DNA of 64,000 nucleotides from Candidatus Poribacteria bacterium. GTDB taxonomy: Bacteria; Poribacteria; WGA-4E; WGA-3G. The notes beneath the pieces were generated by a model, which worked only from the letters and a program-made list of their open reading frames with translations, made no database searches and had not been told where the DNA came from. Position 1 is the stretch's first letter; every line of letters begins with the position of its first letter. The translations under genes and the position numbers were made by a program. Below are positions 1,367 to 56,737 of this stretch, piece by piece. The stretch is taken from positions 2,848,001 through 2,912,000 of the forward strand of contig CBDANF010000003.1 in NCBI GenBank assembly GCA_965197475.1, given 5' to 3'.

Positions 1367-1557
1367 TTTGGATTCGCTCATTCAGAATATAAAGGAGGAA
1401 TTGGCCCGAGGCATTTAGTTCAACTGACAATTTGTGACTAAAATCTAAAACTAAAACAATGGCACAACTTAAATATACTGTACTGCCACCGGAAATTCGG
1501 GCCGCTCTCTAAGACAAGATTATGGTATAATATCCATCTCCTTGAAAGGAGTATCCG

Positions 1558-1848
1558 ATGGCGAAACGAAAACGAAGAAACTTCACCTCCGAGTTTAAAG
1601 CCGAAGTTGTTCTTGAGGCTCTCAGCGTTGAAAGTTCCCAAGCAGAAGTGTGTCGGCGACATAACCTCATCGATGAACAACTTTCAAAGTGGAAGCGACA
1701 GCTTCTTGAAAAAGCGGCGACCCTCTTTGAACCCGCTGATAAACAGTCTGATGCCTCTGCGGAGCGGATCGCCCAACTTGAGCAACTCGTTGGGCGGTTG
1801 ACCTTGGCACTTGACATCCAAAAAAAAGCCTCAACTTACTTGAGTTAG
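1558..1848 (+). CDS. IS3 OrfA (HTH)
   Basis: RRNFTSEFKAEVV HTH_Tnp_1 pattern; A-run CAAAAAAAAG near the 3' end (possible -1 frameshift site). Confidence 0.9.
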   Translation: MAKRKRRNFTSEFKAEVVLEALSVESSQAEVCRRHNLIDEQLSKWKRQLLEKAATLFEPADKQSDASAERIAQLEQLVGRLTLALDIQKKASTYLS

Positions 1849-5765: not shown

Positions 5766-5780
5766 GAGATATCCTCCTAA

Positions 5781-7025
5781 TGTACTGCCACCGGAAATTC
5801 GGGCCACTCTCTAAGACAAGATTATGGTATAATATCCATCTCCTTGAAAGGAGTATCCGATGGCGAAACGAAAACGAAGAAACTTCACCCCCGAGTTTAA
5901 AGCCGAAGTTGTTCTTGAGGCTCTCAGCGTTGAAAGTTCCCAAGCAGAAGTGTGTCGGCGACATAACCTCATCGATGAACAACTTTCAAAGTGGAAGCGA
6001 CAGCTTCTTGAAAAAGCGGCGACCCTCTTTGAACCCGCTGATAAACAGTCTGATGCCTCTGCGGAGCGGATCGCCCAACTTGAGCAACTCGTTGGGCGGT
6101 TGACCTTGGCACTTGACATCCAAAAAAAAGCCTCAACTTACTTGAGTTAGCCTCGATGGAGCAGCGAGAAATGGTTACGGCATTACGGACAGACTTTTCG
6201 GTTCGGCAGATATGTGAGACACTCGGTTTCAACCGAAGCAACCTCTATTATCACTCCAAGCAGGCCCCGTGTGAAGCGGGCCTCCAGGATGAAATAGAGA
6301 CGTTATCTTTGCTATATCCAACATACGGATATAGGCGTCCCACACAGTTGTTGGTGCGTAGCGGATACACCATCGGGTATAAACGTGTTGCCCGATTGAT
6401 GAAGTCCGCCAACCTCTCGGTTTCTGTCAAGCGTGTCTGTCAAACCACGACATCCGTTGCGGGTGTGCGTCCCTGGAGCAATCGCCTTGAAAACCTTGAT
6501 GTCTCCCGATGTAATCAGGTCTGGGTGGGCGATATTACCTACGTCCGCCTCAAAGGACACTTTATCTATGTTTGTCTGCTCATGGATGTCTTCACTCGCA
6601 TGATCAGAGGGTGGCATATCAGTCAACACTTGACGCAATCTCTGACGTTGAAACCCTTGGAGACAGCATTATGTCAAAGTGTCCCAGAGATCCATCATTC
6701 TGATCAAGGCGTTCAATATCTTTCAAATGCGTCCATCTCACTGCTTAGGCATCATGGGATTAAGATTTCAGTCGCCCGGAGAGGGTGTCCTTGGGAGAAC
6801 GGATATGCTGAAAGACTTATCCGCACGCTCAAGGAAGAAGAAGTTCATCTCAATGACTATGAGGACATCCACGAAGCAAGAACCCGCATTGGGCATTTTA
6901 TTACACAAGTGTATAATCACAAACGCCCTCACTCTGCGTTAGGGTATTTGACACCTGTGGAATTTGAGCAAAAAAACTTGTCTTAACTTTGCTAAATTTT
7001 GGTCTGAATAAACGGTAGCACTTCA
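5781..7025 (+). mobile_element. IS3-family element, copy 2, nested in the IS4-like element
   Basis: Same IRs as copy 1; 3-bp TSD TAA; orfA 5860-6150, orfB 6156-6986. Confidence 0.93.
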
Positions 7026-7885: not shown

Positions 7886-10122
7886 ATGGAGATGGCTATG
7901 GCAAAATTACCGAACATTTTACTTATTCTCGCTGACGATCACGGGTATGGCGATATCTCGGCGCACGACGGACCGTCAATTCAAACACCACATATTGATA
8001 GGATTGCTGCACAGGGAACGCGTTTTACGCAATTCTATGCGAATTCTTCTGTTTGTTCCCCAAGCCGTGCATCCCTCATGACTGGACGCTATCCTGATAG
8101 AGCGGGTGTCCCCGGGGTGATTCGCACCCATGCACAGAACAACTGGGGTTACTTTCGACAAGACGCTATCACGTTGCCTTCAATGTTAAAACAGAAAGAT
8201 TATCGCACATCGCTCATCGGAAAATGGCATTTGGGGCTTGAAGATGAGAATCACCCGTGCAAACGAGGTTTTGACCATTTTCACGGTTTCCTCGGTGATA
8301 TGATGGACGATTATTACATGCATCTACGACATCAAAATAACTATATGCGGCACGGTTTTGACACGATCGATCCGAGGGGGCACGCCACTGACCTCTTTAC
8401 GGACTGGAGCGTGGACTTTATTCGAACAGGACTTACGCAGTTTTGAAGATTATTGAAGGATTAGAGAGTTGATGTCGTCCGTAATCATCCAATAAACTTT
8501 GTTTGAGTTCGTAAATCGTTTGAGTGATTTTCCGGGCAGCACGCTTCAAGCAGACCCAGACCTGGAAACAACACGCAATATGGTTTCGTTGGGCACGCAG
8601 TTTGCGGCATTGACATTTGTCAATACCGGTTAATTGTTTGATTTCACGATGAAGTTGCTCAATCTTCCAGCGAACCCGACACTGTTGTTTTGTCGCTTTC
8701 GCATCCGATTGAGATAAATCGTTTGTCACAATATATTCCGTGCGTCCTGTATCAGACACAATCCGGAACAACTTCACTTGATACCCTTTTGGAAACCTTT
8801 TGATATGCACGCGTTTGCCTTGTGTCGTTTCTGATGGAGACCAAGATAAATCTTTTTACTTGCTGGTGCGGTTCAACACCATCCGTATCATTTACAAGCC
8901 TGTTTCGTTTCAGGGGCGCATAGTAGACCTTGGAAAGTGCCGCAATCGCTTTCATTACTTTCATGGATACATACCAAGCATCCATTAGCACTGTCCGAAA
9001 CGAGAGTTGTTTCTTGAAGTAAGCATCGTGCAACATATCAAGTAAATGATCAATTTTGGATTTACCATCAGGGTCTTTGTCAAAAATGCGGTAATCAATG
9101 ATCCAATACTCGTGTGTCTTTGGGTTAACATAGACACACGTGACAATACCGATGCCTTCAATGACCTTTTTGTCGCTACCACTCCATTGAGGGTAGGCAG
9201 CTTCAATCAGTTTTGAATATATTTTTGACAGCACAACATCGTCAAAGATAAGGTATCCATCTTTATCAAACGCAATGTCGTCTTTGACAGATTCCCAGAG
9301 TTCGCTTGAAGGAATGTTTTCGTTTCTCAGGAAACGATTGAGTTGATCATGGCTCCACTTCTCCGTATGGTTTGCAAAATAGGTTTGTGTAAAATTAGTG
9401 AAACTCGCTAACAAAAATTGACAATAATCAGAAAATAAGTGGTGCTTCTTTTTAGAAAGTGTAAATGTAGTCATAATAGAACAGTATAACATAATTGTAG
9501 ATTATTGCGTAAGTCCTGTCGAACTCACGCACATACATCTCATCCTTTTTTCCTCTATCTTGCATATAACGCACCGCATACACCAATTCAACCGCCTGAA
9601 GATTGGATCGAACGCGTGAGGGAACGTGAACTGGACATTTCACCCCAGCGTGCCAAATACGTGGCACTCGTTGAGCACATGGATGCGGGTATCGGAAGGG
9701 TACTTGATACGCTTGAGGAAACTGATCAGCTTTCCAATACGCTTGTAATCTACACATCAGATAATGGAGGAGCGATGCAGGTCGGTGCACATAACGGTCC
9801 GCTACGCGGGCAAAAAGGTGAGATGTACGAAGGCGGGATCCGAGTGCCTACGTGTGCTATGTGGCAAGGGCAGATACCAGAAGGACATGTTACGGATCAG
9901 GTAGCGATGCTTATGGATATCTTTCCAACGCTATGCGAGGTAGTTGATGTTCCTATCAAACACGAAATTGAGGGACGTTCAATTTGGCAAACGCTTCAAG
10001 GCGAAGAACAGGATTTCTCCGAACGCCTCCTTTATTGGTTGCGGAGAGAGGGAGGACAACAGTTTCACGGTCAGTGTCAACATGCCATTCGGCGTGGCGA
10101 TATAAAGTTACGCAATGAGTAG
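7886..10122 (+). pseudogene. Sulfatase split by IS701 and 3'-truncated
   Basis: LADDHGYGD, CSPSRASLMTGRYP, GKWHLG, then after the IS PFFLYLAYNAPH, SDNG, YEGGIRVP; stops just before the IS1595 gene. Confidence 0.9.
8427..9518 (-). mobile_element. IS701-family element with frameshifted transposase (9492..8433)
   Basis: TIR CAGGACTTACGCA at both ends; 5-bp TSD TCGAA; FDD, DAWY, RWKIEQLHREIKQ split over two frames. Confidence 0.9.
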
Positions 10123-10227
10123 TTTTGGACTTGAGAAAAATTTTAAAAAATCGCTATAAAGCCTTGTGTCCACTGGGTTTATATGGTATAATATAGATAA
10201 GAAAATAGGGGGTTGGTAGCCCCCTAA

Positions 10228-11211
10228 ATGAACACAAAAAGCGAGTTGCTTTTTGACGGTTCTAATCTTATCTGGTATTATATCAGAAATCCGTCAGAAA
10301 AAGCAACTCCTATTTCAAGGAGTTATCTGATGGATTTGTTGAAGGTGATGGAGCGTTTTCCCGATCAAGAGAGTTGTATTTCGCATTTAGAGAAGATTCG
10401 GTGGCGAGGTAAACCTGTGTGTCCGCATTGTGAAAGCGATCATATAGGAGAACGGACAGAAACAGAAATCGGTCGTATCGGTCGTTGGAACTGCCACGAG
10501 TGCCAAGTGAGTTTCAAGGTGACGTGCAGGTCGGTGTTTCACGGGACAAAGATAGCGTTACAGAAGTGGTTTTTGGCTATTTCGTTGATAACGAATGCGA
10601 AGAAAAGTTTGTCAAGTCATCAACTTGCGCGCGATTTAGACTTGAATCAAAAGACAGCATGGTATATCATGACTCGTATCCGTGCTGAAATGGCAAAGAA
10701 AGGTAACGTGCTACTACAAGGCATCATAGAGGCAGATGAAACTTACATCGGGGGTAAACCTCGTAAGCCTAATAAGAAGGAAGACCACGTGCCTGCCAAG
10801 CGTGGACGTGGAACAGAGAAAGACGCTATTATCGGGGCAGTACAGCGGGGCGGGAAAGTTGTAGCACAACTCGCTAAAGATTTGACAGGACGGACTATTT
10901 TAGACTTTATCCGAAGAGTCGTCAAAGTTGAGGATTCGGAGTTGATGACCGATGAGTATAAGGCGTATCTCGCTATCGGCAAGGAGATGAAACACCATAT
11001 CATAGATCATCAAACGCAATTTGTTGAGGGTGATGTCCACACAAACACAATTGAGGGGTTTTGGAGTCTACTCAAACGAGCTTGGTATGGAAGTCATCAC
11101 CACTACTGGACTGAATATACGCCCCTGTATGTAGCAGAGGCGTGCTATAAATACAACTATAGGAGCATTGACAGTATCTTTGATAAGTTTGTTAATGAAA
11201 GTATGCGGTGA
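10228..11211 (+). mobile_element. IS1595-family transposase (true start may be ~10330)
   Basis: CPHC...CHEC Zn ribbon, IEADETYIGG, TDEY, HTNTIEGFWSLLKR; element ends not identified. Confidence 0.9.
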
Positions 11212-11549: not shown

Positions 11550-12063
11550 CTAATACCCGTATGGAGAATCAGCAGCTGAAATTAAAATTATCCAAAGTCC
11601 CACCATAGTGCCAGTTCCAATAACACATCCTATTGTAGCATGTGTTATTTGGTCGTTTTTCACAAGTTTTTGATAAATGCTTGTGTAATAAGCAACCTGA
11701 TATTTCTCAAAAGCACTCAGAAATCAGTATCTATCTATGGTCTCTCAATACGCGGTTATGAAAATGCTAAAAAATACTAATTGATAAACCTCCATTATGT
11801 GAAAAAAGCACTTTATTTTCAATACAAAATAGAATAAATTGTCCATTAAATGGGTTTTTTATTGGTGTGACAACATACGCAATTAACATACCGGTAACAC
11901 CAAGTAGACAACCAACAGTTCCCCATATTTGAGTGTTTGCAAGTGTTGCATCACGTCGTGCATCAAATATTGCTTGCGCAGCATCACTTGTTTGTTGTGC
12001 AAGTGTGAGATATGGCGTAGTGAATAACATCACAACCATTATAAACGACAAAGTTTTCATCAA
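11550..12063 (-). pseudogene. Exported membrane protein interrupted by an IS-end remnant
   Basis: N-part ...GMLIAYVVTP ends ~11863; C-part VAYYTSIYQK...GCVIG...SPYGY* resumes at 11696; the insert begins with CTGATATTTCTCAAAA, the same IR type as 4574-7177. Confidence 0.6.
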
Positions 12064-12130
12064 TGTTCCTTTTGTGAGGTAAAATGTGTATGTAGGGGAT
12101 CAAAAGACCCCCTACATGTTTGCAAGCGGA

Positions 12131-12262
12131 TTATTTACACCGCTTGTGAGGTTTGACAGTTTCTTTCACCGTTGTGGCGGGACGGCGTTTGTCCGTGCCT
12201 TTGGGAAGGAACCGTCCGTCTTTGGCATCGCGTACACGCGTGCCAGTGGCTTTTTTAGCCAT
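12131..12262 (-). CDS. Small basic protein (43 aa, RDAKDGRF motif)
   Basis: MAKKATGTRVRDAKDGRFLP...RRPATTVKETV; RBS gaggt; downstream hairpin tgtaggggat...ccccctaca. Confidence 0.6.
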   Translation of the reverse strand: MAKKATGTRVRDAKDGRFLPKGTDKRRPATTVKETVKPHKRCK

Positions 12263-12850
12263 AGTATACCTCACTTTGCTTGAGATAAATTGGTGCATAG
12301 CGTATTTCCAGTGCGTTATGCACTGTTCAAGCATATAAAATTGATACGTTAAACGGGTATCGTTCGTAGGTTCGTTTACACCTTTCTATGGGTGAGGGCA
12401 GGACACAACACAAGGAGTGTTGCGATAGAAATCCTGCCCAACGAACTTGAGAATAGTATAACATGGAAAGAATTTGAGTGTCAAGTGAAAAATTTGAGAA
12501 AAAATTTCAAGTCCAAAACTACTCATTGCGTATATTTTTATATATGTTATTGTGAACACATGAAAAAGACTAAGCAACGGGTTTTCCCTCATTTTACGAC
12601 AGAAGTTCTTACGCTTCCAACGACAATTCGGAAATCTTTATCTTTGGCATAGGATCGCTTTCTAAGTACTCACTCATCCATCTGCCTATCCGTTCTTCAC
12701 GACTCGTTTTTCGATTGGCATGAATATACTCAAGGTAATGAGTCGATCACTTGAGGCAAAAAATCATCATGAGTAAGGCCTTGGAGCAATGCGTGGAATT
12801 CGCTACGGACATATCAGCAAGTTTTTCACAAGATTCACCGTTCATGTGTT

Positions 12851-13000
12851 TTGACATACTCCCCCAGCTAAAGCAAGGGGGATTCTTCTAAAAGAGAATC
12901 CCTTGCTTTCAGGTGCGGATTGTGGGTTTCCGACTTCGGTTGAAGTCTGCGAGGGTTGCTTGTGATCGCAAGTCTGATACCCTCTAATCCAAAGGTTAAT
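12851..13000 (-). ncRNA. Predicted TnpB omega/reRNA scaffold overlapping the tnpB 3' end (5' boundary uncertain)
   Basis: Hairpins gacttc..gaagtc and agcaagggattct..agaatcccccttgct running to the TCAA right end; family knowledge. Confidence 0.6.
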
Positions 13001-14073
13001 GCCCCAACCTTTACTATGTTTATAGCAGCATTCACGTCTCTGTGGTGATTAGTTGGACAACGATTACAAGTCCATTGACGTATAGACAAGTCCATTAGCA
13101 TTTGCTGTTGTCCGCAGGTGCTACAGTTTTTAGAAGTCGCTTCAAACCTATCAATATGATAGATTTCTTTACCATGTTTTGTGGCTTGGTGTTTCAACTT
13201 CAGGTGGAATGCATAGGGCGCAATATCAGAGACTTTACGCCCCCATAGACGCTTCATGCCTTCAAAGGTAAGCGTTTCAAAGCAGAGTGCGTCATATTTA
13301 TGGACAAACTGCTTGGCAAGTTTCCAATGGTGGTCGTCTCGTTTACGCCTGATTTTACGGTGAACACGTGCAGCGTCTTTTCGTGAACGCTCACGATTAT
13401 TGCTACCTTTAACTTTGCGTGAATGTTTGCGTTGTGCTTTCGTCAGTGCTGCCATAGAAGTTTTATAGAATTCAGGGGATGCGTAGAGTGTGCCGTCAGA
13501 ACAGGTGAACATTGTCTTCATACCGAAGTCAAACCCTGCAGCATGACCCGTCTTAGGTAGGACTTCGGAAACAGTGGGGTCTGACACGACAGACATATAG
13601 AAATCACCGAGACTATCTTCCTTTATCGTGATCGTTTTGATATTACCGAGTATAGGACGGCTAAGATTAAAACGATAGTATTTATCCTGTATCCGAACCT
13701 TATCACCATAGAAACCATAACCAGAGGGTGACAGAGTGAACGAATATGGCTTTCGCCATGAACGGAACTTAGGTGGACGCTTGGCAATACCGTCAAAGAA
13801 ACGCTTATGGTTTCCTATATGCAACCTTTTCAGTATCTGCCGGGCTGCCCACGAATCTAACTCACGCCAATGGGCAAACACTTCAGGGTGTGCCGGACGC
13901 AATATAGTGAACTGCCGAGACATTTCGTTATAGGACATATACGGCAGTCCAAGAGCGTAGCGAGCCCGTTGCCAGCCTAAAAAGTAGTTCCATATATCGT
14001 GTGCTATCCACGTTAATCGCTTCAAATTACGATTACGTCTCGCACGAAAAAGTTTGTCCAATGTGCTATACAT
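12868..14073 (-). CDS. tnpB: RNA-guided endonuclease TnpB
   Basis: RuvC triad appears intact (GFDFG, CFETL, RDVNAAINI); CSTC/CNRC Zn finger; PPKFRS. Confidence 0.93.
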   Translation of the reverse strand: MYSTLDKLFRARRNRNLKRLTWIAHDIWNYFLGWQRARYALGLPYMSYNEMSRQFTILRPAHPEVFAHWRELDSWAARQILKRLHIGNHKRFFDGIAKRPPKFRSWRKPYSFTLSPSGYGFYGDKVRIQDKYYRFNLSRPILGNIKTITIKEDSLGDFYMSVVSDPTVSEVLPKTGHAAGFDFGMKTMFTCSDGTLYASPEFYKTSMAALTKAQRKHSRKVKGSNNRERSRKDAARVHRKIRRKRDDHHWKLAKQFVHKYDALCFETLTFEGMKRLWGRKVSDIAPYAFHLKLKHQATKHGKEIYHIDRFEATSKNCSTCGQQQMLMDLSIRQWTCNRCPTNHHRDVNAAINIVKVGALTFGLEGIRLAITSNPRRLQPKSETHNPHLKARDSLLEESPLL

Positions 14074-14082
14074 GGTATATCA

Positions 14083-14167
14083 AGTATCAAGTTTTTAACC
14101 CCTAATGAGTGAGTAGGCAGACACGTAACCTTGCGATTACGCTCATTATGTCTGCCAACTTGATACT
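14083..14167 (-). ncRNA. Structured 5' leader RNA of tnpB (three stems plus possible pseudoknot), copy 1
   Basis: AGUAUCAAGUU/AACUUGAUACU, GGCAGACA/UGUCUGCC, CGUAAUC-GCAA-GGUUACG, UAAUGAG/CUCAUUA. Confidence 0.6.
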
Positions 14168-14170
14168 CTA

Positions 14171-14199
14171 ATTATACTACATTTTAGACCGAAAATCAA
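14171..14199 (-). promoter_or_regulatory. sigma70-type promoter of tnpB
   Basis: TTGATT-17 bp-TATAAT on the minus strand. Confidence 0.7.
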
Positions 14200-14895
14200 A
14201 CCTTTTTCTACAAATGTTTGGTCTAATTAACGAGGGCGAGACTGTATCCCCGCCTTAAAAGGCGAGGTTTTAGTCTCGGAGGTTTTGATAAAAGAGGGAC
14301 AATTTTGGAGGATTCTTTATCGCATATTTCACGCGTGCACAGGCTTGGCAGCGGCACCGCATTTTTCAGAGAGGGGTTTTCGGTAGATAGACAACGTCTA
14401 AAATAGGGACGGAAAGTTTTTTTACATCACGATACCCGATTCCTATTTTCGTTTTCATGTAAAATACAGAAAAAGTTGTCAGATCAAATCACCTAACCGT
14501 ATGGGTTTATCCAATGTGTCAAAATTCACACATAAAACAGTTATACAACGCTATTAGTGAGATTTTGGATACCGAATTCTGCGTGTTTGATAAAATATCA
14601 ATACCAAAAGAAATAATACTCAAAACGCCCAACCATAGTGCTTTCCCGTAATCAAGAAACTTCTGATTTCAATGTAAGCGTTTCGGTGTCAACAGCAGTG
14701 ACTTTCACCAGTTTCAATCTCGTAATCGAGTAACTTCTGATTTCAATATTGAGCAGATTATCAATCCTCCGCCTGAATATGTGAAGTTTCAATCTCGTAA
14801 TCGAGTAACTTCTGATTTCAATATGAACATCATGACGACACAGACACAATCAATTGCTATGATGTTTCAATCTCGTAATCGAGTAACTTCTGATT

Positions 14896-15180
14896 TCAAT
14901 TCATCATGGAGTGGTCGTAAGTATGCTCGGCAGCCTGGATAATCTGATGGATATATGGATAGTCTTCAGCGATTTCGCTATACCAGCCGTCTTTGACATC
15001 TTCGTCTGTCCAGATGTCCTTGAATTCTGCGCCTTCTGCGGGTGAGCCGATGGGGGCTTTGTATTGTTTCTTTGTGTTGAAAGGTGGATCAAGGTATATG
15101 AGATCCACCGTTTCGGAGTTCATGCCACGCATGATGTTAAGGTTGTCGGCGATGAAGAGGGTGCGGTTTTGGAGGTTCAT
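14896..15180 (-). pseudogene. Site-specific DNA methyltransferase N-terminus, truncated at a CRISPR repeat
   Basis: RTLFIADNL...VDLIYLDPPFN (N4/N6 MTase); the stop codon is supplied by the repeat at 14896-14898. Confidence 0.85.
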
Positions 15181-15190
15181 ATCATAAATA

Positions 15191-15457
15191 TTACGACAGT
15201 ATCTTAATATCTAAAAGTTCAAATCCTATACCTTCAGAACTTATATCAACAGTCACTGGTATAGGTTTCATTGAAGGAAGAACATCTTCTATAAGTTTCT
15301 CATTTCTTGTATAAAGCATTAACTGATGTTCCGCATCATTCTTAGGAGGGAAAAAGCGAAAAAAAAGACCGAAAAGAGGACCCGTATTTGTATTATATTG
15401 GTAAACATCAGTTATGGATCCTGTTAATGTACCTCTATTTGGATATATAAAAGACAT
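15191..15457 (-). CDS. Hypothetical protein inside the array insert
   Basis: 88-aa ORF with RBS aaggag. Confidence 0.6.
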   Translation of the reverse strand: MSFIYPNRGTLTGSITDVYQYNTNTGPLFGLFFRFFPPKNDAEHQLMLYTRNEKLIEDVLPSMKPIPVTVDISSEGIGFELLDIKILS

Positions 15458-15521
15458 CTATTTCTCCTTATTGAAGGTTGTCGGCTATGAAGAGGGTGCG
15501 GTTAGGGATTTGTTGGTTCAT

Positions 15522-15983
15522 TTATCGCCATGTTTGAAGTCTTTTATCAAAATTATTAGCTTCTGCTATACACCAAGCAGGTAAGTCGTCTTTAGACCAA
15601 TGAGCGGGGCTTAGTTCGACAGAGTAAACTGGTATACCAGGTGCGACAAAATCATAAATTGCAAAATAAAACTTAGGCACACGTCGTTGTAAAGATGAAG
15701 CAATTGAAACCCATTGGTCTTTTGTGCCATCTTTGAATTTAATACCAAGAACAGTCACAAAAATACGCCATTCCCAATCATCGTTTTTACCAACAATGAC
15801 AACATCGCCTAATGCGCGTAGTTCTCGCTTAAGATGGCTTTCAATTATAATTTGTTCAGTTTTATCTTCTTTTTTTGCATGGACATACACATACACCTTG
15901 AATGTCTTAGGTTCAGGAGCGTAGGCGTTGCCTATGAATACAGCGGAGAGTAGAAGGATTGTGAGTACTAATGATCGTTTCAT
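15522..15983 (-). CDS. Hypothetical exported protein inside the array insert
   Basis: Signal peptide MKRSLVLTILLLSAVFIGNAYA; RBS aaggtga. Confidence 0.7.
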   Translation of the reverse strand: MKRSLVLTILLLSAVFIGNAYAPEPKTFKVYVYVHAKKEDKTEQIIIESHLKRELRALGDVVIVGKNDDWEWRIFVTVLGIKFKDGTKDQWVSIASSLQRRVPKFYFAIYDFVAPGIPVYSVELSPAHWSKDDLPAWCIAEANNFDKRLQTWR

Positions 15984-16060
15984 GGATCACCTTTTATGAA
16001 GAGGGTGCGGTTAGGAATTTGCAGAGGCATAGGAGAAGTTTACATTGTGTGTTATGGTCA

Positions 16061-16444
16061 TTATTTTTCAAAGTTGCTATCTGAGGACACTGGAATACGA
16101 GTACCAATAACACCGTATCCATCATATCCTTCGATCGGTTTTGACTCACCATCCTTTTCAGAACGAAGATCGTATATTTGCTTGCCAGATCTAATTGCAC
16201 TGATTATCTTTTCAAATAAAATCAGACAATCATCTTTACTATGAAAGCCTGCAAAAATATAATAAGTCTCAGAATCATTTGAGAATTTGCCATCATGGAA
16301 TTTTTGAACACCTAAACAGTATGCATCTTTATCGTTAGACTCTTTTACTTTATAAACAACGATTGAGTCATGATTATTTATATTGATAGCAAGAGTATCA
16401 ATAAATTCATTTCTTGTATAAGAATGTTCCAATATTATTAACAT
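16061..16444 (-). CDS. Hypothetical protein inside the array insert
   Basis: 127-aa AT-rich ORF with RBS gaggtga. Confidence 0.65.
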   Translation of the reverse strand: MLIILEHSYTRNEFIDTLAININNHDSIVVYKVKESNDKDAYCLGVQKFHDGKFSNDSETYYIFAGFHSKDDCLILFEKIISAIRSGKQIYDLRSEKDGESKPIEGYDGYGVIGTRIPVSSDSNFEK

Positions 16445-16515
16445 GCTAATTCACCTCTTACAGAATTAAATATATTGCATTAAAGCATTAACAAAATAGT
16501 TAATCCACTTAAATT

Positions 16516-16748
16516 ATGCCAACACCACAAGATGTTATCTGGGAAAGGGATTTAATACCTTACATACATGTCACACTGCTGGGTGAGGACATCACAGCCG
16601 ATTTGCTTTCAGAAAACAATCAAGGTATTGAGGGTATAGAACTGACGCTTGATTATCCGCAACTGAACGTTTTCAAAGCATCGAACATTATCCTTACACT
16701 TGCGAACGATGATGGACGTTTCTCACCTGATAACACCAGCAACTTTTT
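16516..16748 (+). pseudogene. 5' fragment of a possible phage structural/tail-type gene, cut by a CRISPR repeat
   Basis: Protein-like up to ...LTLANDDGRFSPDNTSNF, after which the ORF runs through the repeat and tnpB antisense; phage origin is an inference. Confidence 0.5.
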
Positions 16749-16785
16749 GTTTCAATCTCGTAATCGAGAAACTTTTGATTCCAAC

Positions 16786-17045
16786 TTACGTCTCGCACGA
16801 AAAAGTTTGTCCAATGTGCTATACATGGTATATCAAGTATCAAGTTTTTAACCCCTAATGAGTGGGTAGGCAGACACGTAACCTTGCGATTACGCTCATT
16901 ATGTCTGCCAACTTGATACTCTAATTATACTACATTTTAGACCGAAAATCAAACCTTTTTCTACAAATGTTTGGTCTAATTAACGAGAGCGAGACTGTAT
17001 CCCCGCCTTAAAAGGCGGGGATACAGTCTCGGAGGTTTTGATAAA
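16786..17045 (-). mobile_element. Second, truncated copy of the tnpB element left end (target TTTAT, hairpin, promoter, leader RNA, first 41 nt of tnpB)
   Basis: 260-bp near-identical direct repeat of 14033-14292; abuts the repeat at 16785. Confidence 0.92.
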
Positions 17046-17345
17046 TACAACATATCCTAATACAATCCATCAGTGAGATCAATGTTTTTAGAATATTAAT
17101 GAATATTTACTATTTCTTCAAACAATTGGATAAAAGAGTCGGAACCACGTCACTAATCGGTTGAGAACAATCAGGGATTCTAACCTAACGCATTGGATAA
17201 CGGTTAACACATGCGCGTTTCAGAGATCGCAGTTCCGACCCACCTAAGGAGGCATATTTAGTAATCCGCAATTTCTATGCCAACGGAAAAGGGTGGCATT
17301 CGGTGGAGCGTGCCCTGCTACTTTTAAGGACACACTTCATCTATT

Positions 17346-18251
17346 TTAATTTGAATCCGAAAGTTCTTCTCCAACAATTAGCCGATATGCCTCTCGGTAT
17401 TTCTCGCTCGTTTTAGTAATCACAGTGTCCGGTAACTCAGGTGCTGGCGGTTGCTTGTTCCATCCGATCTCAGAAAGATAATCCCGAACAAACTGCTTGT
17501 CAAAACTTTGTTGTGGCTTTCCGGGTTCATATAAAGCGGCGGGCCAAAACCTTGAGGAATCAGGTGTAAACACTTCATCAATCAAGATCAATTCACCCTC
17601 TCGTTCACCGAATTCAAATTTTGTGTCACATAGGATGATACCTGAGTTTTCGGCATGCCTACTTGCCACCTTGAATAGCGCGAAACTGATATCAATTAGT
17701 CGATCGGTCAGATCAGTACCAACCTGATCACGCATTTGGTCAATAGATATTGGTTCGTCATGCTCACCTTGCTCTGCTTTGGTAGTCGGGGTGAATAGAA
17801 GTTCAGGTAGCCGATCCGACTCGCGTAGTCCCGCGGGTAGTTTTTGTCCGCATATTTCTCCTATTTTCTGATACGAAGCCCACCCCGAACCAGCAAGGTA
17901 ACTCCGCACAACACATTCAATATCAACGCGCTTAGCTTTCTTGACAAGCATTGAACGTCCATTTAAAAGGTCAGCATCAGCATGTAATGTGTCGGGATAC
18001 TCTTCGACTTCTGTTGAAATAAGATGGTTTTCTACGACAGATTTGGTGTAATTGAACCAGAATTTTGACAATCCGGTTAAAACTCTGCCTTTATCTGGAA
18101 TACCGTTCGGCAAGACAACATCAAAGGCAGAAATCCGATCAGTAGACACAATCAGAAATTCATCACCGAGATCGTAGAGATCGCGGACTTTACCACGATG
18201 TGCAGGACTTAAGTTTGTTAATTGTGTAGACGTAATAGTTTTTTGAGGCAT
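17346..18251 (-). CDS. purC: SAICAR synthase
   Basis: GKVRDLY, TDRISAFD, DTKFEFG, DEVFTPDSSRFW, SFDKQFVRD. Confidence 0.96.
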   Translation of the reverse strand: MPQKTITSTQLTNLSPAHRGKVRDLYDLGDEFLIVSTDRISAFDVVLPNGIPDKGRVLTGLSKFWFNYTKSVVENHLISTEVEEYPDTLHADADLLNGRSMLVKKAKRVDIECVVRSYLAGSGWASYQKIGEICGQKLPAGLRESDRLPELLFTPTTKAEQGEHDEPISIDQMRDQVGTDLTDRLIDISFALFKVASRHAENSGIILCDTKFEFGEREGELILIDEVFTPDSSRFWPAALYEPGKPQQSFDKQFVRDYLSEIGWNKQPPAPELPDTVITKTSEKYREAYRLIVGEELSDSN

Positions 18252-18453
18252 ATTTCTCTCCTAAAAAATTTCTTAAGTATCACATTACTCTTTTAGCAGA
18301 TTTTGAAGCACAACTACAGTCTTTACCACGATGTGCAGGACTTAAGTTTGTTAATTGTGTAGACGTAATAGTTTTTTGAGGCATATTTCTCTCCTAAAAA
18401 ATTTCTTAAGTATCACATTACTCTTTTAGCAGATTTTGAAGCACAACTACAGT
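18188..18453. repeat. Perfect 133-bp tandem duplication
   Basis: 18188-18320 equals 18321-18453. Confidence 0.92.
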
Positions 18454-19062
18454 TCTATTTTTCGCATCAATTTTTAGCACTTTCTCAATCTCTTGTTTTG
18501 CATGCTGATTTTTACCGAGATAGTAGTAGCACGCTGCCTTAAGTGCATGAAGTTCTGCTTCAGAGTGATAATCGTGCCGATACAAGTATTGTGCATCAGC
18601 CTGCAATGCGTTATCTATTGCACGGATTGCCGATTCAAAATCGGAATTATCTTTATATCGTAAGTATAGCACATTCGCTAAACCAACCCAAGCGTCCCCG
18701 TTAGATGGATCAAATCGCACAGCATTTTGGAAACCTTCTTGTGCAAGGGAAAGAGAGAGCCCAAGACTTAGATTACTCCAACCGACTCCGTTGTGTGCAT
18801 CACCAAATTCAGGATCAGTGTTGAGGGCGCGTTCAAAACTCAATAAAGCTTGGGTATAATTGCCTGAATAATAAGAACGCCATCCTTGCTGAGTATGATT
18901 TAAAGCGGTTGACGCTCCATTGTCAGAATCACTTGAACAACCAACTTGTATTAAAAGTGAGAATATAAGAAAAAAGATGGACAGAACGATATAAATTTGG
19001 CGCGTCATGTATGCTTTACTAAAGTTTGGACAATTTCTGTCTGTTTCATGTTGTGTTCTCAA
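18418..19062 (-). CDS. TPR lipoprotein
   Basis: Hydrophobic leader plus VGC; TPR pattern (ALNTDPEFGDAHNGVG); true start probably MTRQ. Confidence 0.8.
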   Translation of the reverse strand: MRTQHETDRNCPNFSKAYMTRQIYIVLSIFFLIFSLLIQVGCSSDSDNGASTALNHTQQGWRSYYSGNYTQALLSFERALNTDPEFGDAHNGVGWSNLSLGLSLSLAQEGFQNAVRFDPSNGDAWVGLANVLYLRYKDNSDFESAIRAIDNALQADAQYLYRHDYHSEAELHALKAACYYYLGKNQHAKQEIEKVLKIDAKNRTVVVLQNLLKE

Positions 19063-54131: not shown

Positions 54132-54555
54132 AGTGTTCCTTAGCTATTTTCGGTTGCAGTCTGATCAGGTCAATCATGTGTTCAGTTGTTAATTCAAATG
54201 TTAGATCCATGTTAATCATTTCCTAATCTCGCTTCTTCATTATAACAAAGATCTTTCTAAACATCAACCAAAAAGTAATGAATTCCTCAGATAATGCACC
54301 TCAATTCTAACTTTTTACATAATTTTCACACCCGATAACAAACCGATTTAGCTTCAAAAAAGGGTTTCTAAAAGAAAAGAAATGTGTTAATTGCAGGCAA
54401 AAGAATGCAACGATGAGCAAATTATATCGTTTTATATTTGTTGAAAACAGATTGAACCCTCACGGATTTTTTCTGCATACACTATACCTTAGTCCATTTC
54501 CATGGGCATGTAATCATTCACAGTGTTCTTAATTTTAAGTAAGGAGTAAATTACG

Positions 54556-54924
54556 ATGGGAAATCCTGTCACGTATTTTGAAATAGCCGGTAAAAACGGT
54601 GAAGAGTTAAATGATTTTTACAGTTCCGTATTTGGTTGGAAAACAGAACAAAGCCCTAGCGGTGAGTACGGGATTGACCCGCAGTCAAATGTGGGAATAC
54701 CCGGGCATATATTTCCTGTAACTGAGGACATGGGTTTTTCAAACCACGTCACAGTTTATGTTGAGGTAGTCGATCTTCAAACCTATCTTGATAAGGCAGA
54801 AGATCTTGGTGGTAAGACCCTTATCCCACCTCAGGATATTCCTGGGAACATGGGTTCATTTGCATGGTTCGTTGATCCAAGTGGTAACTGCATCGGATTA
54901 TACCGGCATCCGAATTCAAATTAA
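54556..54924 (+). CDS. VOC family protein 1/6
   Basis: MGNPVTYFEI...DPSGN. Confidence 0.9.
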   Translation: MGNPVTYFEIAGKNGEELNDFYSSVFGWKTEQSPSGEYGIDPQSNVGIPGHIFPVTEDMGFSNHVTVYVEVVDLQTYLDKAEDLGGKTLIPPQDIPGNMGSFAWFVDPSGNCIGLYRHPNSN

Positions 54925-55049
54925 TCATCTTCTCGCTCTTCCTCTGGAACGAAATTTAGTAAAGACATTAACTTACAAGAAACGGGTGATGAACACATCT
55001 TCCCCGCTGTATGTTTGCGATTATAGAAATTAGAATAGGAAAAATTAAA

Positions 55050-55406
55050 ATGGCAAATCCTGTCACGATGTTTGAAATAGCAGGCAAAAAAGAGACCTCG
55101 TTATGTGACTTTTATGGTTCTTTGTTTGGTTGGGACATCAATCAGGACGAAGATTGTGGTAATACTGTAGATACAGATTCGGATCAAGGCATCAACGGAC
55201 ACATTGTGCAGACAACCGAAGGAATGCCTATTACAAACCATGTAACGATTTATATTCAGGTAGATGATATCAATGCTTCTGCTAAGCAAGTAGAAAGTCA
55301 TGGTGGAAAGATACTTATGGGACCCGCCCCTGTTCCCGAAGGCGAGGGATTCTTCGCTATGTTCACTGACCCGAGCGGTAACTTCCTCGGTCTGTTTCAA
55401 TCTTAA
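55050..55406 (+). CDS. VOC family protein 2/6
   Basis: MANPVTMFEI...DPSGN. Confidence 0.9.
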   Translation: MANPVTMFEIAGKKETSLCDFYGSLFGWDINQDEDCGNTVDTDSDQGINGHIVQTTEGMPITNHVTIYIQVDDINASAKQVESHGGKILMGPAPVPEGEGFFAMFTDPSGNFLGLFQS

Positions 55407-55538
55407 GCGGTGATTGTTAGTCGCAGCTTTTTCTGATTGGTTGTCAACGGAAGATGCGACTCCCACTTAAGAGGTTGTAAAACAAGCATCACCGTGCCTC
55501 CGATGTGATTATGACATATTTATGAAGAAGAAATACCG

Positions 55539-55901
55539 ATGGGCAGTTCTGTTTTACATTTCGAAATTGCGGGAAAAGATGTCGAAAAGTTAATTGACTT
55601 TTACAGCACTGTGTTGGAATGGAAAATATCTCCGCTAACAGATGAATTATTCATTGCAGATCCGGCATCAAACAGAGGTATAGAAGGACATCTATTTGAG
55701 ACAACTGAAGAAATGGATTTTACAAACCTCCTCATCATCTATGTTCAAGTTGATGATATCTGGGGTTGTCTGAAGAAAGTGGAAACACTTGGGGGTAAAA
55801 TGCTAACACGACCTCAAGAAATTCCGGGAAATGCAAGTCACTATGCTCTGTTCCGTGATCCGAGTGGTAACGGCATCGGTTTGTTGCAAAAAAGGCTATA
55901 A
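55539..55901 (+). CDS. VOC family protein 3/6
   Basis: MGSSVLHFEI...DPSGN. Confidence 0.9.
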   Translation: MGSSVLHFEIAGKDVEKLIDFYSTVLEWKISPLTDELFIADPASNRGIEGHLFETTEEMDFTNLLIIYVQVDDIWGCLKKVETLGGKMLTRPQEIPGNASHYALFRDPSGNGIGLLQKRL

Positions 55902-55944
55902 TAGTGGTAAATCTATTCTTAACCGGAGTAAGGAGTAAATCTCA

Positions 55945-56328
55945 ATGCCAAATCCAGTGACGAAATTTGAAATAGCAGGTGAGAAAAGTAAAGCCTTAGG
56001 TGATTTTTATCGTTCCGTTTTCGATTGGAAGTCGACAGAATATGCTGCAGGCTATTACGGCTTTGAGACAAGTTCTGAATCTGAAAACGGGATTGAAGGC
56101 CATATATACCCGCCAAACGATGAAATACCTTTAGTAGACAATGTTCCTTTCGCAAACAATGTTACCATCTATGTAACAGTGGAAGATATTCATTCTACGG
56201 TTGAGAAACTTGAGGGTATTGGCGGAAGGATTCTCATGCCTCCCACAGTTGTATCCGATAAAGGTGAGTTATTGGCTATGTTCCTTGACCCAAGCGGAAA
56301 CCGTATCGGTTTGTATCAACCTAAATAA
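55945..56328 (+). CDS. VOC family protein 4/6
   Basis: MPNPVTKFEI...DPSGN. Confidence 0.9.
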   Translation: MPNPVTKFEIAGEKSKALGDFYRSVFDWKSTEYAAGYYGFETSSESENGIEGHIYPPNDEIPLVDNVPFANNVTIYVTVEDIHSTVEKLEGIGGRILMPPTVVSDKGELLAMFLDPSGNRIGLYQPK

Positions 56329-56347
56329 TCAAAAAGGAGTAATGTCA

Positions 56348-56737
56348 ATGGGAAATCCAGTGATGTTTTTTGAAATAGTGGGTAAAAACGCTGAGAAATT
56401 ACGCGAGTTTTACAGCACTCTATTTGATTGGACAATTTTACCATTTGGTTGGAAAATACCCCATTTTCCTAACGATATTTATGGCGTTGATCCGACACCT
56501 CCGCCATTGCCTGACAACGGAATAAAGGGGCATATTTTTCCGCTATCCGATGAAATGGATTTCTCTAATCGTGTTACAATTTTTATACAGGTTGATGATC
56601 TTGAGGAGACATTCAAAAAAATTGAAAATCATGGCGGAAAAACGCTTGTATCGCCGCAGGTGCTGCCTGAAAACATGGGATCAATCGCGATGTTCGTTGA
56701 CCCAAGCAGAAATGTCGTAGGTTTGTACCAGTTATAG
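56348..56737 (+). CDS. VOC family protein 5/6
   Basis: MGNPVMFFEI...DPSRN; RBS aaggag. Confidence 0.9.
   Translation: MGNPVMFFEIVGKNAEKLREFYSTLFDWTILPFGWKIPHFPNDIYGVDPTPPPLPDNGIKGHIFPLSDEMDFSNRVTIFIQVDDLEETFKKIENHGGKTLVSPQVLPENMGSIAMFVDPSRNVVGLYQL

What the first reader, a model, noticed from the sequence alone, without database searches (positions are those of the whole stretch)
14864..16785. A 1,848-bp multi-gene 'giant spacer' inside a CRISPR array
Seen: after spacers of 37, 38 and 41 bp, the next repeat pair (14864-14900 and 16749-16785, same orientation) brackets 14901-16748. This segment holds three intact-looking ORFs and two broken ones. A DNA methyltransferase is cut exactly at the left repeat and a divergent ORF is cut exactly at the right repeat. 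No IS ends, integrase or TSD are visible. Inference: foreign, phage-like DNA was captured at repeat boundaries, either by Cas1-Cas2 integrating a kb-scale fragment or by recombination between two spacers and their two protospacers on one invader. The flanking repeats differ at 4 of 37 positions, which favours recombination or an old event over a fresh integration, since that would duplicate the repeat exactly. The three intact genes are co-oriented with the inferred array transcript, so the array could act as a gene-capture and expression site.
Basis: partly seen in the sequence, partly recalled or inferred. Interest (0 to 1): 0.88.

Follow-up and report, generated by a model that had tools for sequence, protein, structure and literature searches.

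The report
Phage fragment replacing a CRISPR spacer
A leftover CRISPR array with no Cas genes holds a 1.8-kb piece of phage-like DNA exactly where a 37-base spacer should sit, and the whole array lies inside a small TnpB transposon, so it looks like a relic of past recombination and not a working gene-capture site.

Summary
Three identical 37-nt repeats (14711, 14786, 14864), one degenerate terminal repeat (14637) and a fifth repeat (16749-16785) bracket 14901-16748. This segment starts and ends inside truncated genes, flush with the repeats. Independent short-read contigs of one sample cover 14871-16775 without a mismatch, at the same depth as the flanks, so an assembler jump is unlikely.

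- The fifth repeat is not a decayed copy. It is letter for letter the main repeat of a type I-D array in a sister species.
- It abuts a 260-nt second copy of the left end of the neighbouring IS605-family TnpB element.
- The whole block 12851-17040 sits at one IS target site, which is uninterrupted in three congeners.

The genome has no Cas1, Cas2, Cas6, Cas7d or Cas10d.

My reading is an inert relic made in a cas-bearing ancestor by a process specific to repeat boundaries, then carried in the IS. I favour spacer-target homologous exchange (about 0.4) over aberrant Cas1-Cas2 integration (about 0.2). The PAM checks do not clearly support either. Sixteen related arrays show only IS or MITE insertions, plus one ambiguous 4.8-kb gap, so gene capture is not a habit of this system.

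The parts
12851..14287 (-). Full IS605-family (IS1341-like, tnpB only) element: right end at 12851, inner left end at 14287
   Evidence: Copies of 91-92% identity in G044 (1) and G041 (2) match window 12850-14214. End sequences were compared.
12868..14073 (-). tnpB, 401 aa
   Evidence: PF01385 1.9e-22 and PF07282 1.1e-17. NF040570 guided_TnpB 207 bits against a cut-off of 100. Single copy in the genome.
14033..14292 (-). Copy A of the 260-nt direct repeat: tnpB nt 1-41, left end and TTTAT motif. Its left-end hairpin is weakened.
   Evidence: 97.7% identical to 16786-17045, with 6 mismatches of which 4 fall in 14265-14271. DNA fold -12.7 kcal/mol against -24.6 for the outer copy.
14293..14636 (-). 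344-nt trailer-side sequence between the terminal repeat and the inner IS left end
   Evidence: Unique in the genome. No real match in 111 family genomes; one 54-nt hit in G029.
14637..14900 (-). CRISPR array remnant: terminal degenerate repeat 14637-14673, spacer 14674-14710, repeat 14711-14747, spacer 14748-14785, repeat 14786-14822, spacer 14823-14863, repeat 14864-14900
   Evidence: The orientation follows from cas1-cas2 positions next to the same repeat family in G044 and G106 and from the decay of the 14637 repeat.
14901..16748 (-). 1848-nt foreign segment occupying a spacer position, GC 37.5%
14902..15180 (-). N-terminal 93 codons of an N6/N4-type DNA methyltransferase, cut at the repeat
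   Evidence: phrog_67 6.5e-08. 83.7% aa identity to a 476-aa chromosomal paralogue. Junction shown.
15191..15457 (-). ORF of 88 aa, no family
   Evidence: No other copy in the genome.
15522..15983 (-). ORF of 153 aa with a signal-peptide-like N-terminus
   Evidence: 51-62% aa homologues beside the tail-gene homologue in G035, G029 and G032. No Pfam, PHROG or NCBIfam hit.
16061..16444 (-). ORF of 127 aa, no family
   Evidence: Seven weak paralogue hits in the own genome, six of them at 35%.
16516..16748 (+). N-terminal 77 codons of a phage/GTA tail-tip or baseplate-like protein, cut at the repeat
   Evidence: 82% aa identity to an ORF of at least 560 aa on a metagenome contig and 69% to a 656-aa protein. 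Model of the N-terminal 280 aa: pLDDT 86.5. 4 of 4 PDB hits at E <= 0.001 are phage/GTA tail-tip or baseplate chains, TM 0.27-0.30.
16749..16785 (-). Fifth repeat, a different natural variant
   Evidence: Identical to the commonest repeat (43 of 52) of the cas-adjacent array of G044. It differs from the 14864 repeat at crRNA-sense positions 1, 5, 11 and 17.
16786..17040 (-). Copy A' : truncated IS left end (tnpB nt 1-41 at 16786-16826, then the left end with a perfect hairpin), flush against the fifth repeat. The TTTAT target motif follows at 17041-17045.
   Evidence: Promoter-like site on the minus strand at 16952-16924.

Best explanation
SHOWN:
- 12851-17040 is one 4190-bp block bounded by the right and left ends of an IS605-family TnpB element. 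It sits at a single target site that is uninterrupted in three congeners.
- Inside it, between a truncated second copy of the IS left end (LE + tnpB nt 1-41) and the full IS, lies an orphan remnant of a type I-D-family CRISPR array. The array reads on the minus strand.
- In that array a 1848-nt piece of prophage-like DNA occupies exactly one spacer position.
- Three junctions are flush with repeat boundaries: tnpB nt 41 | repeat 16785, repeat 16749 | segment, and segment | repeat 14900.
- The genome has no cas genes, no leader and no Cas6, so the array is inert today.

INFERRED:
- The junctions arose in a cas-bearing ancestor or donor by homologous exchange between spacers and the matching DNA of their targets.
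- A spacer taken from tnpB nt 6-41 (its PAM would be GTA) recombined with an IS copy. That gives the tnpB|repeat junction and the 260-nt duplication, which runs exactly from the IS tip to nt 41. The route was either a 2753-bp circle re-entering a resident IS, or a deletion followed by transposition of the composite from the outer left end to the right end.
- Two spacers against one phage were exchanged for the 1.8-kb stretch lying between their protospacers.

Sub-odds: the structure is real and IS-nested, 0.85. Spacer-target exchange is the mechanism for the segment, about 0.4. The confidence given for this field (0.4) is for the whole statement including the inferred mechanism.
For: - Structure and reads.
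- IS identity and ends. TTTAT precedes the left end at 4 of 4 junctions examined.
- Empty site: window 12737-12850 is directly contiguous with 17043-17290 in G041 and G044, and roughly so in G036. That is 3 of 6 loci fetched; the other 3 are purC flanks.
- Type I-D identity of the repeat family: Csc2, Cas6, Cas3' helicase, Cas4-Cas1 and Cas2 next to the same repeats in G044, and Cas4-Cas1 plus Cas2 in G106.
- The fifth repeat equals the main G044 repeat.
- No Cas1, Cas2, Csc2, Cas6 or G044-type Cas10d in a genome that is 92.7% complete.
- Flushness: homology to paralogues or homologues runs to the boundaries. Three random breakpoints all falling on boundaries would be about (2/75)^3.
- tnpB junction: a 36-nt protospacer ending at nt 41 is preceded by GTA, which fits the type I-D GTN PAM (for the sequence; passages of PMC10212523). 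36 nt is the commonest spacer length in G044.
- Precedent: recombination between targeting spacers and phage genomes is reported. I saw this as a statement in the Discussion of bioRxiv 10.1101/2020.10.09.333658 citing Varble 2019 and Watson 2018.
- Two Y1 transposases are available in trans. The outer left-end hairpin is intact.
Against: - PAM at the repeat-14900 end: it would lie inside the segment, and the + strand has no 'AC' in 14931-14950, so no GTN fits any spacer length from 30 to 46.
- PAM at the 16748 end: the three homologues that reach the breakpoint all continue with TAT, which reads ATA and not GTN on the crRNA strand. They are only 72-82% identical to the segment.
- The GTA at tnpB would arise by chance in roughly a quarter of cases.
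- No supporting spacers: 257 spacers of four related arrays do not hit the segment or the IS. The segment's first and last 40 nt and tnpB nt 1-41 hit no spacer in 16 related arrays.
- No donor phage was found: IMG/VR gave 2 weak loci and none; the JGI metagenome scans gave 0 and 1 relative; INPHARED gave 0.
- The model needs two or three rare exchanges on 36-41 bp of homology.
- In run X3 (second sample) the flanks lie at 50.6 and 79-88 while the exact-match segment contigs lie at 10.9-21.5. This could mean the segment is polymorphic or also sits elsewhere. Contig depths cannot settle it.
- The reads may come from the sample that was assembled, so they are not independent support.
Confidence: 0.4

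Rival explanations
1. Integrase capture (a true 'giant spacer'). In a cas-bearing ancestor, the type I-D Cas1-Cas2(-Cas4) machinery joined the two 3' ends of a kb-long fragment to the leader-repeat and repeat-spacer junctions. A half-site event joined a chromosomal end at tnpB nt 41 to the leader side of the repeat. Later exchange between arrays changed the upstream repeat to the other variant.
For: - The three junctions lie exactly where Cas1 performs its two transesterifications (model described in PMC10212523, passages).
- The same review says that in type I-D the two prespacer ends are held by two separate sub-complexes (Cas1:Cas4 and Cas1:Cas2), and that spacer length varies by 5-6 nt. 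That suggests a looser ruler.
- Related arrays here carry spacers of 34-46 nt.
- Both ends of the segment are arbitrary cuts inside genes.
- The lack of a PAM at the repeat-14900 end is expected for the non-PAM end.
Against: - The flanking repeats differ at 4 of 37 positions, although integration duplicates the repeat.
- The expected PAM position next to 16748 reads ATA in 3 of 3 homologues.
- No Cas1 or Cas2 in this genome.
- None of 894 repeats in 16 related arrays with active-looking systems shows a clear second case.
- My searches found no report of kb-scale integration by Cas1-Cas2. They cover only CC-licensed PMC papers and bioRxiv.
Confidence: 0.2
2. Assembly artefact. The assembler walked from a real spacer into the identical protospacer of a phage contig, and back through a second spacer.
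For: - Such a jump would give flush junctions by construction.
- The genome has the look of a metagenome bin (92.7% complete, 7% contamination).
- X3 shows unequal depths for the flanks and the segment.
Against: - One unbranched contig in X2 runs from 30 nt inside the repeat at 14871 to 27 nt inside the repeat at 16775, with 0 differences. Its depth of 13.7 equals the flanks at 12.7 and 12.9. X1 tiles the same span at 13.7-21.
- If a spacer were shared with a separate phage, the graph should branch about 37 nt in.
- The genome is in 3 contigs, which suggests long reads that would span 4 kb. This is an inference.
Confidence: 0.04
3. Ordinary mobile-element event. Either an IS, MITE or integrase-borne prophage inserted into a spacer or repeat and then decayed, or two unrelated arrays happen to flank a piece of an island.
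For: - Related arrays do carry such insertions: G042 972 nt with a 281-aa transposase-like ORF, G036 2782 nt with two large ORFs, MITE-like copies in G046, G044 and G028.
- A phage that integrates into CRISPR repeats is known: PhiAP1.1, whose attP shares 8 bp with the repeat (bioRxiv 10.1101/2020.10.09.333658, abstract and passages).
- The two flanking repeats are different variants.
Against: - The segment has no transposase, integrase, terminal inverted repeats or target duplication.
- No spacer halves remain at either end. Gene homology reaches the repeats.
- Both ends are truncated genes pointing outwards, which an att-mediated insertion does not give.
- There is no leader-like sequence upstream of the 14864 repeat.
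Confidence: 0.08
4. Working gene-capture platform. The array, or the TnpB element that holds it, acquires and expresses foreign genes as a function.
For: - The three intact ORFs are co-oriented with the array.
- They lie downstream of a promoter-like site in the outer IS left end, 16952-16924 on the minus strand, 10 of 12 matches.
- tnpB lies downstream in the same direction.
Against: - Promoter-like sites are not enriched: 16 found against 10.9 +/- 3.2 in shuffles.
- No cas genes.
- Single instance among 17 arrays.
- The repeats are type I-D repeats unrelated to a TnpB guide RNA. Rfam found nothing above its gathering score.
- The ORFs have no known family.
Confidence: 0.03

Closest known systems
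Recombination between CRISPR spacers and the phage genomes they target (Varble 2019, Watson 2018). I saw these only as cited in the Discussion of bioRxiv 10.1101/2020.10.09.333658.
   Same: Exchange on spacer-length homology joins phage DNA to array DNA, and by construction it yields junctions flush with repeats.
   Different: That work concerns phages picking up whole CRISPR loci for transduction. Here a 1.8-kb phage piece would have replaced spacers inside a chromosomal array, and a spacer against an IS would have fused the array to that IS. Neither spacer was observed.
Canonical type I-D spacer acquisition by Cas1, Cas2 and Cas4 (review PMC10212523, passages)
   Same: New DNA is joined at the leader-repeat and repeat-spacer junctions, so it ends flush with the repeats. 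The repeat family is type I-D.
   Different: Normal spacers are about 35 nt (34-46 in the relatives here), carry a GTN PAM and lie between duplicated identical repeats. This segment is 1848 nt, shows no fitting PAM, lies between two repeat variants and is in a genome without Cas1 or Cas2.
Prophage PhiAP1.1 integrating into CRISPR repeats of Streptococcus pyogenes (bioRxiv 10.1101/2020.10.09.333658, abstract and passages)
   Same: Phage DNA lies between two repeats of one array and silences it.
   Different: That event is integrase-mediated, uses an attP sharing 8 bp with the repeat and inserts a whole prophage. Here there is no integrase or att site, and both ends are cut genes.
IS and MITE insertions in CRISPR arrays, as seen in the relatives here
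   Same: They are kb-scale interruptions of an array of the same repeat family.
   Different: Those sit inside spacers, leaving spacer halves, and carry transposase genes or inverted repeats. This segment has none and replaces the spacer exactly.
IS200/IS605 'peel-and-paste' elements with TnpB (bioRxiv 10.1101/2023.03.14.532601, abstract and passages)
   Same: TnpB, subterminal palindromes, insertion next to an AT-rich transposon-adjacent motif (TTTAT here), no inverted terminal repeats, and an empty site in relatives.
   Different: This copy carries 2.75 kb of passenger DNA (array plus phage fragment) and a duplicated left end. There is no tnpA in cis. Mobility of the composite was not tested.

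Membership tests
CRISPR array of the type I-D repeat family | Three or more near-identical direct repeats separated by unique spacers of regular length | tested here: met
   3 identical repeats plus a degenerate terminal one, with spacers of 37, 38 and 41 nt.
CRISPR array of the type I-D repeat family | The same repeat family lies next to type I-D cas genes in relatives | tested here: met
   G044: Csc2, Cas6, Cas3' helicase, Cas4-Cas1 and Cas2. G106: Cas4-Cas1 and Cas2. Matches at up to 3 mismatches in 5 of 112 family genomes. More divergent arrays in 20 of 40 genus genomes.
CRISPR array of the type I-D repeat family | cas genes and a leader in the same genome (a working system) | tested here: not met
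   No hit for PF01867, PF09827, PF18320, PF10040 or the G044 Cas10d protein in a genome 92.7% complete. The upstream side of the first repeat is IS sequence.
Spacer integrated by Cas1-Cas2 | Flush with the repeats on both sides | tested here: met
   Gene homology reaches the boundaries within 1-2 nt.
Spacer integrated by Cas1-Cas2 | Length within the system's ruler | tested here: not met
   1848 nt against 34-46 nt in the four related arrays whose spacer lengths were tallied. In all 16 arrays every gap is at most 60 nt apart from the 11 listed long gaps.
Spacer integrated by Cas1-Cas2 | Flanking repeats are duplicates of one another | tested here: not met
   4 of 37 positions differ, all in the leader-side half.
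Spacer integrated by Cas1-Cas2 | GTN PAM beside the leader-proximal end in the donor | tested here: inconclusive
   The donor is unknown. 3 of 3 homologues at 72-82% identity read ATA at that place. The PAM is taken from PMC10212523.
IS200/IS605 family element | TnpB (RuvC-like, RNA-guided nuclease family) gene | tested here: met
   NF040570 at 207 bits against a cut-off of 100, plus PF01385 and PF07282.
IS200/IS605 family element | Subterminal hairpin at the end, conserved adjacent motif, no inverted terminal repeats | tested here: met
   The outer left end folds at -24.6 kcal/mol, z -12. TTTAT lies before the left end in 4 of 4 copies examined.
IS200/IS605 family element | An uninterrupted target site exists in relatives | tested here: met
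   G041 and G044 join the homologues of 12737-12850 and 17043-17290 directly. G036 does so approximately.
IS200/IS605 family element | TnpA (Y1) transposase for mobility | tested here: inconclusive
   None in the element. Two PF01797 genes lie elsewhere in the genome. Whether they act on these ends was not tested.
Prophage integrated at a CRISPR repeat (PhiAP1.1 type) | Integrase and att core, with intact phage ends | tested here: not met
   The ORFs carry no integrase family. Both ends are truncated genes.
Phage or GTA tail module (origin of the segment) | Recognisable tail or baseplate protein | tested here: met
   N-terminal 280-aa model of the full-length relative (pLDDT 86.5): 4 of 4 PDB hits at E <= 0.001 are phage Chi, GTA, JBD30 and R4C tail-tip or baseplate chains, but the TM scores are only 0.27-0.30. 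ESM Atlas leads at 0.76 point to Prophage_tailD1 and Sipho_Gp37. No Pfam, PHROG, NCBIfam or INPHARED hit.

The most novel reading that the evidence does not exclude
The type I-D adaptation machinery holds the two prespacer ends in separate sub-complexes. It may occasionally integrate kilobase-long DNA at repeat boundaries, making true gene-bearing 'giant spacers'. An IS605/TnpB element can then carry such an array piece to new sites and genomes. Together these would give a route by which CRISPR arrays capture genes and TnpB elements come to sit next to arrays.
Probability: 0.12. Interest if true: 0.85.

Novelty: new variant of a known kind. Interest (0 to 1): 0.55.

Why it matters
Arrays interrupted by IS elements or prophages are known. 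A kilobase of gene-bearing foreign DNA that replaces a spacer to the base is not something my literature searches turned up (CC-licensed PMC and bioRxiv only). Here it also comes with a second flush junction to an IS.

If the junctions come from spacer-target recombination, the locus is a natural record showing that immunity memories can act as recombination handles. Such handles would rearrange the host chromosome, delete cas genes and load array pieces onto transposons.

If the junctions come from the integrase, the locus would show that the type I-D ruler can fail by a factor of fifty.

Either way, the TnpB element with a CRISPR array inside its ends is a concrete example of the physical association presumed to precede type V systems. 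That link is from my recall and was not tested here. The case rests on one locus without a donor sequence, so its present value is as a lead.

Tried and rejected
- Donor search for the segment. IMG/VR with the tail fragment gave 2 loci matching only a 14-residue motif. IMG/VR with the 153-aa ORF gave none. INPHARED tblastn with the full-length relative and with the neighbouring 714-aa protein gave none. JGI metagenome contigs gave one 2.4-kb relative at 82% aa.
- Pre-insertion allele or further copies. The first 25 nt of spacer 3 gave 0 matches in metagenome contigs. The tnpB|repeat junction 28-mer gave 0 in genome contigs. The 344-nt trailer found no partner in 111 family genomes.
- Deriving the PAM of this repeat family from protospacers. 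The G044 array against 40 genus genomes gave only array-to-array and repeat-like hits. Five candidate places gave noise plus one 29-nt match at 86%. I therefore used the published GTN.
- G044's 4810-nt gap as a second case. It holds dispersed repeats and a 1304-aa cadherin/LRR gene. An 84-aa open frame runs flush from the repeat but has no homologue in 39 congeners. It stays ambiguous.
- Rfam on 12000-18500: 3 matches, all far below their gathering scores.
- Whole-protein fold search of the tail-gene relative was swamped by its C-terminal beta-propeller. Only the N-terminal model was informative.
- Depths in run X3 hint at polymorphism, but contig depths cannot show it.
- A contig in X2 joining an R5'-type repeat to spacer 2 (depth 4.4) and a contig in X1 skipping 14731-14863 (shorter side 21 letters) were not interpreted.

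Full report
**What is there.** The window is G000:C3:2848001-2912000 of a 5.70-Mb genome in 3 contigs.
- The 37-nt repeat occurs exactly three times, at 14711, 14786 and 14864 (0 expected in 100 shuffles). It occurs nowhere else in the genome.
- A copy with 8 mismatches lies at 14637-14673, and a copy with 4 mismatches at 16749-16785.
- The spacers are 37, 38 and 41 nt, and the bracketed segment is 1848 nt.
- On the minus strand the segment holds the first 93 codons of a DNA methyltransferase and ORFs of 88, 153 and 127 aa. On the plus strand it holds the first 77 codons of another gene.
- The methyltransferase fragment aligns with a 476-aa chromosomal paralogue up to the last base before the repeat.
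- The other fragment aligns with homologues in G029 and G032 and on a metagenome contig up to the last bases before the other repeat. Its relatives have at least 560 and 656 aa.

**Is it an assembly artefact?** Three public runs from one study hold the stretch, and their Logan contigs were laid.
- In X2 one 1905-nt contig covers 14871-16775 with no difference at depth 13.7. The flanks lie at 12.7 (14263-14739) and 12.9 (17025-17700). X1, from the same sample, tiles the same span at 13.7-21.
- The contig enters the two repeats by 30 and 27 letters. This is just short of the tool's 31-letter rule, so it does not formally bridge. However, it does not branch about 37 nt in, as it should if a spacer were shared with a free phage.
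- In X3, from a second sample, the flanks lie at 50.6 and 79-88 and carry 1-2 variant letters, while exact-match contigs of the segment lie at 10.9-21.5. This may reflect strain mixtures or polymorphism, and contig depths cannot decide.
- The runs may be the assembly's own source.
- I put the artefact at about 0.04.

**Orientation and type.** The same repeat family forms arrays of 98, 86 and 23 units in G028, G106 and G056, and occurs in G044. That is 5 of 112 family genomes at up to 3 mismatches, counting G000. More divergent arrays occur in 20 of 40 genus genomes.
- In G044 the array follows WYL, a 958-aa gene, Csc2, a 251-aa gene, a Cas3'-type helicase, Cas6, Cas4-Cas1 and Cas2. In G106 it follows Cas4-Cas1 and Cas2. 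This is a type I-D system.
- The positions of cas2 fix the crRNA sense as the window's minus strand. On that reading the 14637 repeat, decayed in its 3' half, is the terminal repeat.
- The repeat at 16749-16785 is identical to the commonest G044 repeat, 43 of 52. It differs from the 14864 repeat only at positions 1, 5, 11 and 17 of the crRNA sense.
- In the laid runs this variant has summed depths of 18,000-108,000, so large arrays of it exist in the community.

**No cas genes.** The own genome (92.7% complete, 7% contamination) gave no hit for Cas1, Cas2, Csc2, Cas6 or the G044 958-aa protein.

- 14033-14292 and 16786-17045 are a 260-nt direct repeat with 6 mismatches.
- Copy A is the first 41 nt of the tnpB gene (12868-14073, minus strand) plus the sequence upstream of it. 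The gene matches PF01385 and PF07282, and NF040570 at 207 bits. Copy A' abuts the 16749 repeat flush.
- Full copies of this element at 91-92% identity exist in G044 (1) and G041 (2).
- In all four left-end junctions examined, the end is preceded by TTTAT. This fits the transposon-adjacent motif of IS200/IS605 elements (bioRxiv 10.1101/2023.03.14.532601, abstract and passages).
- In G041 and G044 the homologues of window 12737-12850 and 17043-17290 are directly contiguous. In G036 they are nearly so.
- So 12851-17040 (4190 bp) lies at one IS target site. In the element's own (minus-strand) direction, which runs from 17040 down to 12851, its order is: outer left end with a perfect hairpin (-24.6 kcal/mol), tnpB nt 1-41, the 16749 repeat, the segment, the array, 344 nt, the inner left end with a weakened hairpin (-12.7 kcal/mol), tnpB, and the right end.
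- Two Y1 transposase genes lie elsewhere in the genome.

**Origin of the segment.**
- At DNA level the only other own-genome matches to the segment are methyltransferase paralogues. At protein level the tail-gene fragment and the 88-aa ORF hit only themselves, while orf153 (1 hit, 31%) and orf127 (7 hits, 26-35%) have weak paralogues.
- The methyltransferase 5' part has 14 paralogous hits in the genome and matches in many of the 71 of 112 family genomes that hit the segment.
- The 153-aa ORF and the divergent fragment are neighbours in G029, G032 and G035. In G029 they sit beside a 240-aa and a 714-aa coiled-coil ORF.
- The full-length relative has 240 relatives at E <= 0.001, but 10 of 10 relatives tested have no Pfam family and 9 of 10 no PHROG.
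- A model of its N-terminal 280 aa (53 sequences, pLDDT 86.5) gave 4 PDB hits at E <= 0.001. All four are tail-tip or baseplate chains of phage Chi, a gene transfer agent, JBD30 and siphophage R4C. Their TM scores are low, 0.27-0.30.
- ESM Atlas leads at 0.76 point the same way.
- 'Phage- or GTA-tail-like' is therefore supported at moderate strength.
- GC is 37.5%, against 40-47% in most neighbouring 400-nt windows; the adjacent IS and intergenic windows are as low (0.35-0.37).

**Mechanism.** Three junctions fall on repeat boundaries. Random breakpoints would do so with a probability of about (2/75)^3. The process therefore either cuts at boundaries (the integrase) or uses spacers as homology.

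I favour spacer homology, for these reasons:
- It explains why the duplicated IS piece runs exactly from the element's tip to tnpB nt 41. A spacer equal to tnpB nt 6-41 would have the PAM GTA, which fits the type I-D GTN (PMC10212523, passages). 36 nt is the commonest spacer length in G044.
- Exchange between that spacer and an IS copy downstream of the array would release a 2753-bp circle. That circle could re-enter any IS copy through 260 nt of homology, which gives the observed order.
- Alternatively, an upstream IS copy was fused to the array by deletion, and the composite then moved from the outer left end to the right end.
- The same kind of exchange with two protospacers on one phage would place the interval between them in the array. 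Spacer-phage recombination is documented (Discussion passage of bioRxiv 10.1101/2020.10.09.333658 citing earlier work).

Against this reading:
- No GTN fits the internal PAM position at the 14900 end for spacer lengths 30-46.
- The three homologues that reach the other breakpoint continue with TAT, that is ATA on the crRNA strand.
- 257 spacers of four related arrays do not hit the segment or the IS. The segment's ends and tnpB nt 1-41 hit no spacer in the 16 related arrays held.

The integrase alternative gains plausibility from the two separate end-binding sub-complexes described for type I-D. It must, however, explain the unequal flanking repeats and the missing PAM. I give exchange about 0.4, the integrase about 0.2, and leave the rest open.

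**Generality.** In 16 related arrays with 894 repeats there are 11 gaps above 60 nt.
- Three are degenerate leader-side repeats, with gaps of 71, 71 and 84 nt.
- Those of 268-383 nt and 1216 nt hold MITE-like sequence or a decayed repeat.
- The 972-nt and 2782-nt gaps hold transposase-like ORFs and retain spacer halves.
- G044's 4810-nt gap remains ambiguous.
- None repeats the pattern seen here, so the idea that the array acts as a gene-capture and expression site is not supported.

**Literature.** Searches found IS insertions, array recombination and prophage integration into repeats. They found no description of a kilobase gene-bearing segment flush between repeats. Only CC-licensed PMC papers and bioRxiv were searched, and supplements were closed.

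**Verdict.** The structure is real and unusual but inert, and it is IS-nested. It is a new variant of known array-disruption and recombination events, and the mechanism is unresolved.

Noticed in passing
window 15139-15173, 15474-15508, 15983-16017: The 5' end of the methyltransferase gene (start codon plus an invariant 17-nt core, AACCGCACCCTCTTCAT) occurs three times. Each copy stands in front of one of the small ORFs, as if cassettes had been added by recombination at this conserved gene start.
   Followed up: partly
L021 5149-9958 (G044): A type I-D array with intact cas genes is split by 4810 nt. The gap holds dispersed repeats and a 1304-aa cadherin/LRR gene. The repeats on either side are of the same rare variant, and an 84-aa open frame runs flush from the upstream repeat.
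   Followed up: partly
L021 10595-10963 (G044); L022 (G028), 383-nt gap: A MITE with ends GTCTGAACCAGGATT...AATCCTGGTTCAGAC is inserted in spacers near the trailer ends of two related arrays.
   Followed up: no
L023 and L024 (G106, G056), 71 nt upstream of the first repeat: A degenerate repeat-like unit is embedded in the leader of two related arrays.
   Followed up: no
L075, L076, L077 (G032:C57, G035:C16, G042:C14): Solitary CRISPR-repeat-like units lie away from the arrays of their genomes.
   Followed up: no
window 18188-18453: A perfect tandem duplication of 133 nt spans the start of purC (17346-18251, minus strand) and the sequence upstream of it.
   Followed up: no
window 1476-1775 and 5778-6077: A 300-nt direct repeat, 99% identical, with copies 4302 nt apart.
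   Followed up: no
window 54538-56984: Six copies of a ~104-nt unit at 67-77% identity, spaced 403-551 nt apart.
   Followed up: no
window 8752-11211: An IS-rich stretch: a DDE_5-like transposase, a sulfatase fragment and an IS1595-family transposase.
   Followed up: no
G000:C3 242436, 591603, 1217485, 2473276, 2587269, 2787735: The 127-aa ORF of the segment has six equally scoring 35% paralogues, which suggests a multicopy element carrying a related gene.
   Followed up: no
window 16786 joined to 14748 in run X2: A low-depth contig (4.4) joins a repeat of the 16749 type to spacer 2. This hints at a related array in the community that shares this spacer but uses the other repeat variant.
   Followed up: no
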